Below are positions 7,586-9,974 of a DNA stretch of 9,974 nucleotides, piece by piece. Numbering within the stretch: position 1 is the stretch's first letter; every line of letters starts with the position of its first letter. Both the position numbers and the translations under genes were made by a program. The notes beneath the pieces were generated by a model, which was given only the letters and a program-made list of their open reading frames with translations, was not told the DNA's origin and made no database searches. Source of the DNA: a virus (lineage: Duplodnaviria; Heunggongvirae; Uroviricota; Caudoviricetes); the IMG/VR virus record IMGVR_UViG_2541047897_000006; one strand, written 5' to 3'.

Positions 7586-8137
7586 ATGAATCGCACATCC
7601 CTGATTAAATTAATCCATGTCGCCCGTCGGGAGCTACAACTCGACGACGACACTTACCGCGCTTTTCTGATGCAGAAAACGGGCAAAATCAGTTGCCGCG
7701 AGCTGACGGTTACGCAACTGGAACAGGTGCTCAATGCCATGAAAGAACGCGGCTTTAAGAAGCAGAATAAACACCCACGCCGTCGGTTTAAGGGGCATGT
7801 CACGCCCCGTGAGAAGGTGTATAAAATCTGGCAGCAGATGGCAGAAGACGGTTTTATTACCGATGGTGGTGATGTGGCGCTGGACAGATATGTTCAGCGC
7901 CTGACAGCGAAACGTAATGGCGGACAGGGTGTTTCCACGCTGGCGTGGTGCCACGGAGAATCGTTGCAGGTTGTGCTTGAAACACTCAAGCAGTGGCACA
8001 TCCGCTGTATTCGTGAAGCCTTTTCCCGTCACGGGCTTCCGTTGCCGGTCAGTCCGTCCGGGCGTGAACTGCGCGGCTATGATGCCATGACGGCGGCTTA
8101 TGCCCATGCCAGAAAGACACGGAGGATGGCACAATGA
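7586..8137 (+). CDS. gemA: GemA-like protein (Mu gp16 family)
   Basis: 183-aa ORF with a GGAGGT RBS. It lies immediately upstream of mor and overlaps it (ATGA), as gemA does in Mu. The call rests on position and size; I cannot search the sequence. Confidence 0.75.
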   Translation: MNRTSLIKLIHVARRELQLDDDTYRAFLMQKTGKISCRELTVTQLEQVLNAMKERGFKKQNKHPRRRFKGHVTPREKVYKIWQQMAEDGFITDGGDVALDRYVQRLTAKRNGGQGVSTLAWCHGESLQVVLETLKQWHIRCIREAFSRHGLPLPVSPSGRELRGYDAMTAAYAHARKTRRMAQ

Positions 8138-8523
8138 CGGAAGATTTATTTGGTGATTTGCAGGATGACACCATTCTGGCACATCTTGACAATCCCGCAG
8201 AGGATACGTCACGCTTTCCGGCACTGCTGGCGGAGCTGAACGATTTACTGCGCGGGGAATTGTCCCGGCTGGGTGTTGATCCTGCCCATTCACTGGAGAT
8301 TGTTGTGGCTATCTGTAAGCATCTGGGCGGTGGTCAGGTCTACATTCCACGCGGTCAGGTTCTGGACTCGCTGATTCGGGATTTGCGTATCTGGAATGAT
8401 TTTAACGGTCGCAACGTCAGCGAACTGACCACCCGTTATGGTGTCACTTTCAACACGGTTTACAAGGCTATTCGCCGGATGCGACGGCTGAAATACCGCC
8501 AGTACCAGCCCTCACTTCTGTAA
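8134..8523 (+). CDS. mor: Middle operon regulator Mor (transcription activator of Pm)
   Basis: 129-aa ORF with a GGAGGA RBS 7 nt upstream. The protein (MTEDLFGDLQDDTILAHLDNPAED...) matches Mu Mor as I recall it. Its C-terminal half is a paralogue of the C protein downstream: compare GGGQVYIPRG...IWNDFNGRNVSEL with GGRQFYIPCG...LYCQFNGRNMEEL. Confidence 0.9.
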   Translation: MTEDLFGDLQDDTILAHLDNPAEDTSRFPALLAELNDLLRGELSRLGVDPAHSLEIVVAICKHLGGGQVYIPRGQVLDSLIRDLRIWNDFNGRNVSELTTRYGVTFNTVYKAIRRMRRLKYRQYQPSLL

Positions 8524-8528
8524 ACAGT

Positions 8529-8553
8529 AAAGCCGGTTAATCCGGCTTTTTTT
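8529..8553 (+). terminator. Rho-independent terminator at the end of the early operon
   Basis: AAAGCCGG-ttaat-CCGGCTTT stem-loop followed by a run of seven T residues, 6 nt after the mor stop codon. Confidence 0.8.
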
Positions 8554-8559
8554 ACGTCC

Positions 8560-8640
8560 TCAATATCCTGTGATGAATAACCGTACCGGGGGAAATCATC
8601 ATGGGTAAAGGCTGGAATGCATCCTTTCATCTTGGCAGAC
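8560..8640 (+). promoter_or_regulatory. Probable middle promoter Pm with Mor-binding dyad (position approximate)
   Basis: An imperfect dyad, TGATGAATAA...N...AAATCATCA, spans about 8571-8601 just downstream of the early terminator. In Mu, Mor binds a dyad upstream of Pm, which drives C. I cannot place the -10 element or the +1 from sequence. Confidence 0.4.
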
Positions 8641-8941
8641 GTGAGCGGCTGTGTCAGGAGGTTTTGCACCGTGTCGCCGGTGGGCCACGGCCTGCGCCCC
8701 GCGACTATACCGGTCATGATGGCACCCACGGAAGTTATTACATGAAAGGATGGCAGTCGGTTGATATGCCGGAAATTCTTCACCACTGTCAACGTTATAA
8801 GGAAAAATATTGTGTACAGAAAATTCAGTGATGAATGTTTCGGGCCATTCGCGCTGCTCACCGCAATAAAAGTGATCGCCCTGGTGGTTCTGATAAGCAT
8901 CAGTGCCGTGGTGTCTTTCTGTCTGTTAACCGGGGGAAAAT

Positions 8942-9364
8942 ATGCAGCATGATTTATTTGAACACGATCCGGCAATTCGCCAGTTAATCGGGCATATTGA
9001 TAACATCCCGGCCCCGGAACTGGAATCACGCTGGCCCCGTTCGGTGGTTGATCTGATTGATGTTCTGGAAAACGAACTGAAACGCCAGAACGTCAGCAAT
9101 CCCCGTGAGCTTGCCCGTAAACAGGCCGTTGCCCTGTCCTGTTTTCTGGGCGGACGGCAGTTTTATATCCCCTGCGGCGATACTATCCTGACCGCGTTAC
9201 GCGACGATTTGCTTTACTGCCAGTTCAATGGTCGTAACATGGAAGAACTGCGTCGCCAGTACCGCCTGTCCCAGCCGCAGATCTACCAGATTATTGCCCG
9301 CCAGAGAAAGCTGCATACACGGCGTCATCAGCCTGATCTGTTCTCACCTGAAAGCCAGAAATAA
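8942..9364 (+). CDS. C: Late transcription activator C
   Basis: 140-aa ORF whose sequence (MQHDLFEHDPAIRQLIGHIDN...) matches Mu C as I recall it, and which is paralogous to Mor. It is followed by a hairpin terminator and then lys. Confidence 0.9.
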   Translation: MQHDLFEHDPAIRQLIGHIDNIPAPELESRWPRSVVDLIDVLENELKRQNVSNPRELARKQAVALSCFLGGRQFYIPCGDTILTALRDDLLYCQFNGRNMEELRRQYRLSQPQIYQIIARQRKLHTRRHQPDLFSPESQK

Positions 9365-9386
9365 CCGGCATCCTGCCGGTTATTTC
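9361..9386 (+). terminator. Probable terminator of the middle (C) transcript
   Basis: ATAACCGGCA-tcc-TGCCGGTTAT forms a perfect 10-bp stem with a 3-nt loop and includes the C stop codon. It is followed by TTCC, a short U-tract, so efficiency is uncertain. Confidence 0.55.
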
Positions 9387-9455
9387 CTGTCACCATAATC
9401 CCGCACCTGCCATCTGATTTTTTAGACTGCCATCAGAGCATTTTTTCAGGGAAGC
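9387..9455 (+). promoter_or_regulatory. Probable C-dependent late promoter Plys
   Basis: A 70-bp gap separates the C terminator from lys. It contains a -10-like TAGACT at 9423-9428 and no convincing -35, which is typical of activator-dependent Mu late promoters. The position is inferred, not mapped. Confidence 0.4.
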
Positions 9456-9458
9456 ATG

Positions 9459-9974
9459 ATGGCGGGGATACCAAAAAAACTGAAAGCCGCACTGCTGGCG
9501 GCAACGATTGCCGGTGGCAGTGTGGGTGGTTATCAGGAAATGACCCGTCAGTCTCTGATCCATCTGGAAAATATCGCTTATATGCCTTACCGCGATATTG
9601 CCGGTGTGCTTACGGTCTGTGTGGGACATACCGGGCCGGATATCGAAATGCGCCGTTACAGCCATGCGGAGTGTATGGCTCTCCTCGACAGTGATTTAAA
9701 ACCGGTTTATGCGGCAATCGATCGTCTTGTCAGGGTGCCGCTGACGCCATATCAGAAAACGGCGCTGGCAACGTTTATTTTCAACACCGGTGTTACCGCA
9801 TTCAGTAAATCAACGCTGCTGAAAAAACTCAATGCCGGTGATTACGCCGGAGCGCGTGACCAGATGGCCCGCTGGGTGTTTGCCGCAGGCCATAAATGGA
9901 AAGGACTGATGAACCGTCGCGAAGTGGAAATGGCAATCTGGAATATCAGGGGGGCGGATGACCTTCGCCAGTAA
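9459..9974 (+). CDS. lys: Endolysin Lys (SAR-type lysozyme)
   Basis: 171 aa from ATG 9459, where the GGGAAG RBS spacing is better than for the ORF-track start at 9456. The N-terminus LKAALLAATIAGGSVGGY is a Gly/Ala-rich weakly hydrophobic segment typical of a signal-anchor-release domain. A catalytic E...D...T spacing is visible in ENIAYMPYRDIAGVLT. The sequence matches Mu Lys as I recall it, and the TAA stop is the last codon of the window. Confidence 0.9.
   Translation: MAGIPKKLKAALLAATIAGGSVGGYQEMTRQSLIHLENIAYMPYRDIAGVLTVCVGHTGPDIEMRRYSHAECMALLDSDLKPVYAAIDRLVRVPLTPYQKTALATFIFNTGVTAFSKSTLLKKLNAGDYAGARDQMARWVFAAGHKWKGLMNRREVEMAIWNIRGADDLRQ

What the first reader, a model, noticed from the sequence alone, without database searches (positions are those of the whole stretch)
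8554..8941. About 390-nt region between the early terminator and C: Mor-site dyad, a duplicated ACCGGGGGAAA motif before two ATGs, and a leader ORF encoding a single-TM peptide
First, the dyad TGATGA...TCATCA lies just after the terminator, where a Mor site is expected. Second, the 11-mer ACCGGGGGAAA occurs at 8585-8595 and again at 8929-8939, each time 5-6 nt upstream of an ATG (the 76-aa ORF at 8601 and C at 8942). An 11-mer repeat alone can arise by chance in 10 kb, but the identical placement before start codons is notable. Third, the frame 8761-8952 has an internal GTG at 8809 preceded by AAGGA and would encode about 47 aa containing a clear hydrophobic helix (FALLTAIKVIALVVLISISAVVSFCLL); it ends overlapping the C start. 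A small membrane peptide co-translated ahead of C is not a described Mu function as far as I know.
Basis: partly seen in the sequence, partly recalled or inferred. Interest (0 to 1): 0.45.

Follow-up and report, generated by a model that had tools for sequence, protein, structure and literature searches.

The report
Phage Mu middle-operon leader region
This stretch is the well-studied start of the phage Mu "middle operon" (promoter Pm, genes 18 and 20, and the ribosome site of gene C) in an SfMu-like E. coli prophage.

Summary
The window is a Mu-like prophage, 97.8% identical to SfMu.

- **Mor site.** It is not TGATGA…TCATCA. Published numbering puts Pm +1 at 8577 and the Mor dyad at 8526-8541, inside the early terminator.
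- **The 11-mer.** Both copies hold the G5 Shine-Dalgarno sequences of gp18 and C. Copy 1 is 10/11 in Mu and absent in GH108-type relatives. Forty-five 11-mer pairs occur in the window.
- **The two ORFs.** The 76-aa ORF is Mu gp18 (PF26867). The TM peptide is Mu gp20, an annotated, dispensable middle-gene membrane protein. It starts at GTG 8812, not 8809. Here it carries a 2-nt deletion that gives 46 aa and an overlap with C.
- **gp19.** It is absent, as in SfMu.

**New lead.** The dyad is the core of a 10-bp stem (8567-8576 / 8596-8605) that pairs the promoter's discriminator with the gp18 AUG. Equivalent, covarying stems occur in 23 of 24 leader types of Mor-type promoters, and at Mu Plys and PI. 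Because +1 lies just 3' of the 5' arm, only read-through RNA can fold. I infer IS10-like insulation of translation. This is untested.

The parts
8134..8523 (+). mor, the activator of the middle promoter and last gene of the early operon
   Evidence: 129 aa, 99% identical to Mu Mor. Annotated in Mu and SfMu at the homologous place.
8526..8541 (.). Mor-binding imperfect dyad AGTAA-AGCCGG-TTAAT (-51..-36 of Pm)
   Evidence: Published wild-type -57..-52 = GTAAAC = 8520-8525. The dyad is at -51..-36, as 5-bp repeats around a G/C-rich hexamer. The sequence is identical to Mu.
8529..8553 (+). Early-operon intrinsic terminator (hairpin 8529-8549, T-run 8547-8553), overlapping the Mor site
   Evidence: Terminator scan. 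Terminator feature 9179-9200 in AF083977, which equals 8532-8553.
8564..8569 (+). Pm -10 hexamer TATCCT (-13..-8). There is no -35.
   Evidence: The position follows from +1. The same column holds a -10-like hexamer in all 70 related leaders and in the four Mu late promoters. The sigma-70 scan finds no full promoter here.
8577..8577 (+). Pm transcription start (+1, A)
   Evidence: Derived from published Pm numbering (Table 3 of PMC4390567). Consistent with the AF083977 promoter feature ending at +10.
8567..8576 (+). 5' arm CCUGUGAUGA of the start-spanning hairpin.
   Evidence: Folds. Covariation in relatives.
8596..8605 (+). 3' arm UCAUCAUGGG of the hairpin.
   Evidence: Unpaired probability of the AUG is 0.77 in Pm RNA and 0.014 in read-through RNA.
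8585..8595 (+). 11-mer copy 1. It holds the gp18 Shine-Dalgarno sequence (GGGGG, 8588-8592) and lies in the hairpin loop.
   Evidence: RBS annotated at the same place in AF083977. Variants in relatives.
8601..8831 (+). gp18 (E18) homologue, 76 aa, function unknown
   Evidence: phrog_2121, E = 7.9e-37. Homologues carry PF26867 Phage_Mu_gp18. 36 invariant columns. pN/pS 0.05-0.23.
8812..8952 (+). gp20 homologue, a single-TM peptide. GTG start, SD AAGGA 8799-8803. This is the 46-aa allele, caused by a 2-nt deletion near 8913/8914. It overlaps gp18 by 20 nt and C by 11 nt.
   Evidence: phrog_19823, E = 2.7e-27. Alignment to Mu and SfMu. The identical allele occurs in six complete E. coli genomes.
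8929..8939 (+). 11-mer copy 2. It holds the Shine-Dalgarno sequence of C (GGGGG, 8932-8936).
   Evidence: RBS annotated in AF083977.
8942..9364 (+). C, the activator of late transcription and last gene of the middle operon
   Evidence: 140 aa, 98.6% identical to Mu C.
9428..9464 (+). The same design at the late promoter Plys. The 5' arm UGCCAUCA (9428-9435) lies just 3' of the -10 hexamer TAGACT (9423-9428). Inferred +1 is 9436. The 3' arm UGAUGGCG (9457-9464) lies over the lys start codons.
   Evidence: Fold. +1 was inferred by aligning the four annotated Mu late promoters on their -10 hexamers and on the C dyad at -43.5.

Best explanation
**Shown, by identity to characterised Mu sequence.** Window 8516-8941 is the 5' part of the Mu-type middle operon in an SfMu-like E. 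coli prophage.
- Mor binds the dyad at 8526-8541, which is embedded in the early terminator.
- Together with sigma-70 RNA polymerase and the -10 hexamer TATCCT, it starts the middle transcript at A8577.
- That transcript encodes gp18, gp20 and C, in that order.
- Mu's gp19 is missing, as in SfMu.
- The duplicated 11-mer is the G5 Shine-Dalgarno region of gp18 and of C.
- The 'leader TM peptide' is Mu gp20. In this lineage it has a frameshifted tail that runs 11 nt into C.

**Inferred.**
- The 5' arm is the promoter's own discriminator and the end of its -10 hexamer.
- The 3' arm covers the gp18 start codon.
- Pm transcripts begin one base after the 5' arm, so they cannot form the stem and have an open leader.
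- RNA that reads through the early terminator contains both arms, and its gp18 AUG is sequestered.
- I propose that this insulates translation of the middle operon from early read-through, and, through coupling or Rho polarity, premature C synthesis as well. IS10 and IS50 protect their transposase genes from outside transcription in the same way.
For: **Identity of the parts**
- 97-98% DNA identity to SfMu, Mu and D108, with matching annotation.
- Sequence identical to Mu from 8500 to 8591.
- Published Pm numbering.
- HMM hits for gp18 and gp20.
- gp20 is kept at 39 aa, with an ATG or GTG start, in three different upstream contexts.
- Literature describes genes 19 and 20 as dispensable middle-gene membrane proteins.

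**Hairpin in the window**
- In the 141-nt read-through RNA the MFE keeps the terminator hairpin plus the 10-bp stem, z = -2.08. RNA starting at +1 has z = +1.26.
- AUG accessibility is 0.77 in Pm RNA and 0.014 in read-through RNA. Reversing the 5' arm restores it to 0.57.

**Hairpin in relatives**
- A scan for the terminator/Mor-dyad element gave 150 sites, 70 unique leaders and 24 leader types.
- In 23 of 24 types the MFE hairpin's 5' arm starts at -9..-7.
- In 22 of 24 types at least 5 of the 7 discriminator bases are paired. Fisher-combined shuffle p = 1.6e-5.
- The arms differ completely between lineages. Each 5' arm pairs far better with its own leader than with other lineages' leaders (-9.6 against -5.2 kcal/mol). 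The cognate partner ranks first in 13 of 24, and 0 of 20,000 permutations reach the observed mean.
- In the E. coli GH108-type relative the stem also swallows the SD (dG -22.9 kcal/mol, z = -2.7).
- The natural variant TCATTAT keeps the pair as G.U.

**Same geometry at C-dependent Mu promoters**
- Plys in this window.
- PI: z = -3.3 for read-through RNA and +1.0 for RNA from +1.
Against: - There is no experimental evidence for the hairpin's function.
- Taken alone, the window's stem is modest: a 6-bp perfect core at chance density, and z = -0.7 in a 69-nt context.
- Start sites in the relatives are inferred from Mu geometry, not mapped.
- In many relatives the 3' arm abuts the SD rather than covering it. 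The mean accessibility effect is moderate: 0.58 falls to 0.45, against 0.53 with the arm reversed.
- The 24 leader types are not phylogenetically independent.
- The same design at PI, where read-through from another late operon should be harmless, fits the 'premature expression' rationale poorly.
- The amount of read-through past the early terminator is unknown.
- I could not read the 1989-1996 primary papers, so the dyad may already have been noted there.
Confidence: 0.6

Rival explanations
1. TGATGA…TCATCA is the Mor operator, the 11-mer is a shared regulatory signal for two start codons, and the TM peptide is an undescribed leader peptide controlling C.
For: The dyad lies just after the terminator. 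Both 11-mers precede ATGs. The ORF ends inside C.
Against: - The Mor dyad is experimentally placed at -51..-36, which is 8526-8541.
- Its sequence is replaced by unrelated arms in relatives that keep the Mor site.
- The 11-mer varies or is absent in relatives.
- gp20 is annotated in Mu, D108, SfMu and PhiR68_1, and is dispensable.
Confidence: 0.03
2. The conserved start-spanning inverted repeat is real, but it acts at a level other than translational insulation. Possibilities are a DNA-level element that helps activator-dependent open-complex formation or promoter escape, a processing or stability determinant of read-through RNA, or a pause or roadblock for incoming polymerases.
For: - The 5' arm always coincides with the discriminator, and the discriminator is often GGGA/GGAA-like.
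- The design also occurs at PI, where blocking translation of read-through RNA has no obvious benefit.
- In many relatives the 3' arm stops just before the SD.
- Middle transcription requires DNA replication.
Against: - Arms with unrelated sequences but preserved complementarity argue for base pairing rather than protein or RNAP sequence recognition.
- The 3' arm is always tied to the translation start region. It covers the AUG at Pm and Plys, the SD in L004 and L032, and the spacer complement of the start codon in others.
- No U-tract follows the stems, so they are not terminators.
Confidence: 0.25
3. The two 11-mers are a recombination scar or duplication that marks the ends of a mobile, non-essential gp18-gp20 cassette inserted between Pm and C.
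For: - The copies flank exactly the dispensable genes.
- Cassette content varies between relatives: gp18-19-20, gp18-20, or GH108-gp18-20.
- This pair is the best match among gene-start leaders.
Against: - None of 41 E. coli genomes with this prophage type has Pm fused directly to C.
- The variation lies inside the cassette (gp19 present or absent, GH108 present or absent), not at the repeats.
- Copy 1 is absent where GH108 is first.
- In 14 loci from other genera gp18 belongs to a Mor-driven GH108 operon that has no C at all. C, not gp18, therefore looks like the newcomer.
- 11-mer repeats are common in the window.
Confidence: 0.07
4. In this lineage gp20 is a decaying gene. The 2-nt deletion and the dense substitutions mark loss of function, and the overlap with C is incidental.
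For: - The frameshift replaces the last 5 codons and adds 7.
- There are 11-12 substitutions within about 70 nt, against about 2% elsewhere.
- gp20 is dispensable in Mu.
- pN/pS is about 0.3, on few sites.
- PGAP does not call the ORF.
Against: - The start codon, SD and the whole TM segment are intact. Hydrophobicity is slightly higher than in Mu.
- The change affects only the extreme C-terminus.
- The allele is identical in six independent complete genomes.
- Half of the substitutions are synonymous.
Confidence: 0.25

Closest known systems
Bacteriophage Mu middle operon: Pm, genes 18 (E18), 19 (E19), 20 and C (AF083977; Howe laboratory work on Pm and Mor)
   Same: - Same gene order and the same promoter. 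The sequence is identical from 8500 to 8591, including the Mor dyad, the UP subsite GTAAAC, the -10 hexamer and +1.
- gp18 is 92% identical, C 98.6% and Mor 99%.
   Different: - gp19, the 120-aa 4-TM protein, is absent.
- gp18 has a different C-terminus, 76 aa against 72 aa.
- gp20 starts with GTG behind AAGGA and has a frameshifted 46-aa form.
- Copy 1 of the 11-mer is exact here but 10/11 in Mu.
Shigella phage SfMu orf19/orf20 (KP010268). The same arrangement is found in Yersinia phage Tongde and in Escherichia phage PhiR68_1.
   Same: Same gp19-less arrangement, the same GTG start for gp20, and both 11-mers exact. Identity is 97.8% over 1.4 kb.
   Different: SfMu gp20 is 39 aa and stops 12 nt before C. 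The window allele has the 2-nt deletion and a patch of substitutions. This allele is shared with six E. coli genomes.
IS10 / IS50 'protection from outside activation', that is, fold-back inhibition of read-through transcripts. Cited from my own knowledge: Davis, Simons & Kleckner 1985; Krebs & Reznikoff 1986; Schulz & Reznikoff 1991.
   Same: An inverted repeat has its 5' arm upstream of the element's own transcription start and its 3' arm over the translation start. Only externally initiated RNA can fold, and the authentic transcript is open.
   Different: - Here the protected unit is an activator-dependent phage operon placed directly behind a terminator.
- The 5' arm is the promoter's discriminator and -10 end.
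- The function is inferred from sequence and covariation only. For IS10 and IS50 it was shown genetically.
Mu late promoters Plys and PI (C-dependent)
   Same: Same architecture. The activator dyad is centred at -43.5 behind a terminator, there is a -10 hexamer without a -35, and there is a start-spanning stem whose 3' arm reaches the first gene's translation start.
   Different: The activator is C rather than Mor, and the arm sequences are different. For PI, blocking read-through translation has no obvious timing benefit.

Membership tests
Mu Pm-type Mor-dependent promoter | 16-bp imperfect dyad (5-bp repeats, G/C-rich hexamer spacer) centred at -43.5 | tested here: met
   AGTAA-AGCCGG-TTAAT at 8526-8541, which is -51..-36 with +1 at 8577. 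Identical to Mu.
Mu Pm-type Mor-dependent promoter | Recognisable -10 hexamer, no -35 hexamer, and a proximal UP subsite at -57..-52 | tested here: met
   TATCCT at -13..-8. GTAAAC at 8520-8525. The sigma-70 consensus scan finds no complete promoter here.
Mu Pm-type Mor-dependent promoter | Transcription from +1 depends on Mor | not testable with these tools
   mor is present upstream and is 99% identical to Mu Mor. Activity was not measured.
Relatives that keep the Mor dyad have unrelated sequences at this place.
Phage_Mu_gp18 (PF26867 / phrog_2121) | Profile match over the whole protein, with conserved residues | tested here: met
   phrog_2121, E = 7.9e-37, residues 1-73. All homologues carry PF26867. 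36 invariant columns. The local Pfam copy gave no hit.
Mu gp20 (phrog_19823) | Profile match and a single hydrophobic TM segment | tested here: met
   E = 2.7e-27 over residues 1-39. 19-residue Kyte-Doolittle mean of 2.96. Mu gp20 is annotated as a 1-TM protein, N-in C-out.
Mu gp20 (phrog_19823) | 39 aa, with the stop codon 12 nt upstream of the C start | tested here: not met
   This allele is 46 aa and stops 8 nt after the C ATG, because of a 2-nt deletion. All 14 other relatives examined have 39 aa.
Mu gp20 (phrog_19823) | Made as a membrane protein during the middle phase | not testable with these tools
   The only evidence is conservation of the frame and start codon in three upstream contexts, plus literature on Mu.
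Fold-back inhibition of read-through transcripts (IS10/IS50 kind) | Inverted repeat with its 5' arm upstream of the unit's own +1 and its 3' arm over the translation initiation region | tested here: met
   Arms at 8567-8576 and 8596-8605, +1 at 8577, AUG at 8601.
Fold-back inhibition of read-through transcripts (IS10/IS50 kind) | Pairing is under selection (covariation) | tested here: met
   Cognate against non-cognate arm test: -9.6 against -5.2 kcal/mol, with 0 of 20,000 permutations reaching the observed mean. The 5' arm starts at -9..-7 in 23 of 24 leader types.
Fold-back inhibition of read-through transcripts (IS10/IS50 kind) | Read-through RNA exists and is translated less well than promoter-initiated RNA | not testable with these tools
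   Only predicted accessibility is available: 0.014 against 0.77 for the AUG.

The most novel reading that the evidence does not exclude
Mor/C-family-dependent promoters of Mu-like phages carry a built-in 'anti-start' element. The non-transcribed promoter core (spacer, -10 end and discriminator, about -22..-1) is kept complementary to the ribosome-binding region of the first downstream gene. RNA entering from the upstream operon through the leaky terminator is therefore translationally silent, and probably Rho-sensitive. Only activator-initiated transcripts are expressed. This would be a general, sequence-independent design rule that sharpens the early, middle and late cascade. It is seen here at Pm/gp18 and Plys/lys, at Mu PI, and in 23 of 24 leader types from other Enterobacteriaceae phages.
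Probability: 0.4. Interest if true: 0.55.

Novelty: new member of a known kind. Interest (0 to 1): 0.33.

Why it matters
- **Annotation.** The region needs no new genes or operators.
- **Mu biology.** If the hairpin inference holds, it adds a post-transcriptional layer to a textbook transcriptional cascade. It would explain how a phage that puts each activator-dependent promoter directly behind the previous operon's terminator avoids premature expression of C and, in relatives, of the endolysin.
- **Wider use.** It would give a compact way to insulate a promoter that is independent of the actual sequence.
- **Side result.** gp18 is always the gene after a GH108 endolysin in other genera. This gives a first functional context for a protein of unknown function.

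Tried and rejected
- **Cassette-less relatives (Pm fused to C).** A chimeric query against 5,426 E. coli genomes gave no single-piece match in the 41 genomes that matched.
- **gp18 structure.** The AlphaFold2 model had mean pLDDT 53, so no fold search was run.
- **gp18 families.** The local Pfam copy gave no hit. The family is tiny: 8 clusters in the word search and 17 in the full HMM search.
- **Mu gp19 against the multi-TM ORFs at the same position in other genera.** hhalign probability 0.3%, so no detectable homology.
- **gp20 against the 200-aa protein of those relatives.** No similarity.
- **RNA structure around the gp20 and C starts.** No structure stronger than in shuffles.
- **Rfam.** Only a chance-level sroD hit on the terminator, E = 0.34.
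- **MAFFT alignment of the leaders.** It did not align the 3' arms. I therefore used anchored folding, shuffles and a cognate/non-cognate duplex test instead of the count of structure pairs.
- **Primary papers from 1989-1996.** Artsimovitch & Howe 1996 and Mathee & Howe 1990 are not held. Searches for prior mention of the hairpin found nothing.
- **Extended similarity between the two 11-mer contexts.** The local alignment is just the 11-mer.
Full report
**What the window is.** A megablast of 8100-9500 finds 15 phage records. The closest is Shigella phage SfMu (97.8% over the whole query), followed by Yersinia and Escherichia Mu-like phages. Mu and D108 align at about 97% in two pieces, because they carry an extra ~370 nt. 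The annotated Mu record (AF083977) lists, in order:
- mor
- the middle promoter Pm, overlapping a terminator
- gene 18
- gene 19, a 4-TM protein
- gene 20, a 39-aa 1-TM protein
- C, and its terminator
- the late promoter Plys and the endolysin gene

SfMu has the same order without gene 19. In the window the equivalents are mor 8134-8523, gp18 8601-8831, gp20 8812-8952, C 8942-9364 and lys from 9456. The same 461 nt (8500-8960) occur at 100% identity in six complete E. coli chromosomes, so the window is an E. coli prophage allele and not a sequencing artefact.

**Checking the observations.**
- *Dyad.* The dyad is there: TGATGA 8571-8576 and TCATCA 8596-8601. Perfect 6-bp inverted repeats with a 3-25 nt spacer occur about once per 100 nt in this window.
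- *11-mer.* The 11-mer is there twice and only twice. The window also has 45 exact 11-mer direct pairs, against a simulated mean of 17. The gaps to the two ATGs are 5 nt and 2 nt, so the placement is similar but not identical.
- *Gene-start leaders.* Among the 17 gene-start leaders, gp18 and C share the longest word (11 nt; the next best is 8). The pair's local alignment is just the 11-mer and is reached by 5 of 2000 shuffles. That means roughly 0.3 such pairs are expected over all 136 pairs.
- *Internal start.* The internal start is GTG 8812, not 8809. AAGGA is at 8799-8803, the product is 46 aa, and the quoted hydrophobic segment is correct.

**Where Mor binds and where transcription starts.** The Howe laboratory papers give three fixed points:
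- The Mor site is a 16-bp element with 5-bp inverted repeats around a G/C-rich hexamer, centred at -43.5 (-51..-36). The Mor footprint is -56..-36.
- The wild-type bases -57..-52 are GTAAAC.
- GTAAAC is at 8520-8525. Therefore +1 is A8577, and the Mor dyad is AGTAA-AGCCGG-TTAAT at 8526-8541. This overlaps the left arm of the early terminator hairpin (8529-8549, T-run to 8553).

The AF083977 promoter feature ends exactly at +10 on this numbering. The -10 hexamer is TATCCT, 8564-8569. The window is identical to Mu across all of this.

**The two ORFs.**
- *gp18.* The 76-aa ORF matches phrog_2121 at E = 7.9e-37, and its homologues carry Pfam PF26867 'Phage_Mu_gp18'. It is a real protein, with 36 invariant columns across genera and pN/pS of 0.05-0.23. 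Its function is unknown, and an AlphaFold2 model was too poor to use (pLDDT 53).
- *gp20.* The TM peptide matches phrog_19823 at E = 2.7e-27. It corresponds to Mu gp20, D108 gene 20, SfMu orf20 and PhiR68_1 'Mup20'.
- *What is known about genes 19 and 20.* Chamblee et al. 2022 describe them as middle genes encoding membrane proteins. [quoted passage not shown] The peptide is therefore described, although its function remains unknown.
- *Conservation of gp20.* In 14 relatives gp20 is always 39 aa. It keeps a start codon (ATG or GTG) in three different upstream contexts: after gp19 in Mu, and two different gp18/gp20 junctions.
- *The window allele.* It differs by a 2-nt deletion near 8913/8914 and by 11-12 substitutions in about 70 nt. 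The last five codons are replaced, and the ORF runs 11 nt into C. The TM segment is intact. pN/pS is about 0.3, on few sites.

**The 11-mer.** Both copies contain the only plausible Shine-Dalgarno sequence (GGGGG) of gp18 and of C. AF083977 annotates ribosome-binding sites at both places.
- Copy 1 is exact in SfMu, D108 and most E. coli prophages. It is ACCGGGGAAAA in Mu and ACCGGGGGAAC in L010.
- Copy 1 is absent in prophages where a GH108 gene precedes gp18.
- Copy 2 varies in L008 and L009.
- No relative among 41 E. coli genomes has Pm joined directly to C, so the repeats do not behave as cassette ends.

I conclude that these are two similar ribosome-binding sites. Common descent or chance cannot be distinguished, and there is no evidence for any function beyond ribosome binding.

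**Architecture in relatives.** Among the 41 E. coli genomes with this region, 18 have gp18-gp20, 18 have gp18-gp19-gp20, and 5 have GH108-gp18-gp20. In 14 loci from Enterobacter, Pluralibacter, Citrobacter, Raoultella, Trabulsiella, Klebsiella and Serratia the order is as follows:
- mor, sometimes followed by an extra ORF
- the same terminator/Mor-dyad element
- a GH108 endolysin
- gp18
- a multi-TM ORF
- a 200-aa protein
- TraR
- DUF2730

There is no C and no gp20 in these loci. gp18 therefore belongs ancestrally to a Mor-driven lysis/late operon. Mu gp19 is not detectably homologous to the multi-TM ORFs at that position.

**The new lead: a start-spanning hairpin.** I lined up the leaders of these Mor-type promoters by the Mor dyad and the -10 hexamer. 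Every one has an inverted repeat whose 5' arm begins directly after, or inside the end of, the -10 hexamer. The 3' arm lies just before or over the translation start.
- *Data set.* A scan of viral contigs for the terminator/dyad element gave 150 sites, 70 unique leaders and 24 leader types that are less than 80% similar to each other.
- *Position of the 5' arm.* The MFE hairpin's 5' arm starts at -9..-7 in 23 of 24 types. At least 5 of the 7 discriminator bases are paired in 22 of 24, with a Fisher-combined shuffle p of 1.6e-5.
- *Covariation.* The arms are unrelated in sequence between lineages. Examples are AGAAAAGT/ACTTTTCT, GAAGCAG/CTGCTTC, GTCCGTC/GACGGAC, GGGATT/AATCCC and TGATGA/TCATCA. 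In a test that controls for composition, each 5' arm pairs with its own leader at -9.6 kcal/mol, against -5.2 kcal/mol for other lineages' leaders. The cognate partner is the best of 24 in 13 cases, and 0 of 20,000 permutations reach the observed mean.
- *The window.* The stem is 10 bp, CCUGUGAUGA 8567-8576 with UCAUCAUGGG 8596-8605, including two G.U pairs. The SD lies in the 19-nt loop. A natural variant, TCATTAT, keeps pairing as G.U.
- *GH108-type E. coli relative.* The promoter spacer GCCCUC also pairs with the SD GAGGGC (dG -22.9 kcal/mol, z = -2.7).
- *Consequence of the start site.* Because +1 (8577) is the base after the 5' arm, Pm RNA cannot form the stem and is less structured than shuffles (z = +1.26). 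RNA that reads through the terminator can form it. The predicted unpaired probability of the gp18 AUG is 0.77 in Pm RNA and 0.014 in read-through RNA, and 0.57 when the arm is reversed.
- *Mu late promoters.* The four annotated Mu late promoters align on their -10 hexamers, with the C dyad at -43.5. This places Plys +1 at window 9436.
  - At Plys, UGCCAUCA 9428-9435 pairs with UGAUGGCG 9457-9464, over the lys start codons.
  - At PI, read-through RNA has z = -3.3 and RNA from +1 has z = +1.0.

**Mechanism proposed, and its status.** The identity of the promoter, start site, genes and ribosome sites is shown by identity to characterised Mu sequence. It is also shown that the complementarity is under selection. 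The function is inferred. I suggest the stem silences translation of RNA that enters from the upstream operon, so that expression of the middle operon depends on Mor-initiated transcripts. In relatives the protected operon is the endolysin operon. This is the logic known for IS10 and IS50 (own knowledge). Untranslated read-through RNA would also be exposed to Rho, which is a further inference.

Weak points:
- The effect size predicted for many relatives is moderate.
- Start sites outside Mu are inferred from geometry.
- PI does not obviously need such protection.
- Read-through levels are unknown.
- I could not read the oldest primary papers. Searches of the held literature found no mention of the hairpin.

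**Verdict.** The finding as written is mostly a rediscovery of known Mu features with a wrong assignment of the Mor site. Its dyad observation nevertheless points to a conserved, testable RNA element that I have not found described.

| Claim | Confidence |
|---|---|
| Annotation of the parts | about 0.95 |
| The stem is a selected element | about 0.85 |
| The proposed function of the stem | about 0.4-0.45 |

Noticed in passing
L004 1949-2509; L005 1949-2509; L007 607-1167: Some E. coli prophages and Yersinia phages vB_YpM_5/6 carry a GH108 endolysin gene (Glyco_hydro_108 + PG_binding_3) between Pm and gp18. They therefore encode two endolysins: GH108 in the middle operon and the gp22-type lysozyme in the late operon.
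   Followed up: partly
L013-L026 (for example L013 1417-2228): In 14 loci from seven other enterobacterial genera gp18 always directly follows a GH108 endolysin, downstream of mor. Neither C nor gp20 is present. This suggests that Mu's non-essential middle genes are relics of an ancestral Mor-driven lysis/late operon, and that C is a later insertion.
   Followed up: partly
window 8840-8915: There is a patch of 11-12 substitutions plus a 2-nt deletion within gp20, relative to SfMu and Mu, while the flanks differ by about 2%. The allele is identical in six complete E. coli genomes (four dog isolates, one horse, one soil). It looks like a recombination patch from an unsampled relative.
   Followed up: partly
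window 8805-8815; L005 2700-2716; L001 1005-1020 and 1378-1390: The gp19-less arrangement has two different junctions: ...AAATATT-GTG in SfMu and the window, and ...AAATACC-ATG in L005 and L007. In all types the downstream ORF's start codon sits in the same register relative to the gp18 end. This suggests start-to-start deletions that happened more than once.
   Followed up: no
window 9423-9464; L150 7700-7775: The late promoters Plys (in the window) and PI (Mu) show the same start-spanning hairpin design as Pm. The 5' arm is the discriminator, and the 3' arm lies at the first gene's translation start.
   Followed up: yes
L150 about 25447-25481 (Mu Pmom/com): At Pmom an 8-bp inverted repeat GAATTGAT / ATCAATTC encloses the com SD and AUG. 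Here the 5' arm is almost entirely downstream of the inferred +1, so the arrangement is different.
   Followed up: no
L017, L022, L046 and others (spacer -22..-15 against the start-codon region): In several lineages the promoter spacer upstream of the -10 hexamer (for example ATGCCTGC) is also complementary to the start-codon region of the first gene (GCAGGCATG). This extends the promoter/TIR complementarity beyond the discriminator. The control window -22..-12 showed a weaker but significant cognate effect.
   Followed up: partly
L032 (4002 and 11736), L050, L071, L075: The same terminator/Mor-dyad element occurs twice, about 7.7 kb apart, in single viral contigs. The second copy has a CATACT -10 hexamer and its own covarying hairpin (CCGTCG/CGACGG). 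This is presumably a second Mor-dependent late promoter.
   Followed up: partly
window 8460-9029, minus strand: A 189-aa ORF covers the whole region on the opposite strand. It has no Pfam or PHROG hit, and its Mu counterparts were only 'putative' in the 1991 record. It is most likely spurious.
   Followed up: partly
window 6558, 8221, 9489: The 12-13-mer GCACTGCTGGCG(G) occurs three times, in an early gene, in mor and in lys. It illustrates how common exact word repeats are in this window.
   Followed up: no
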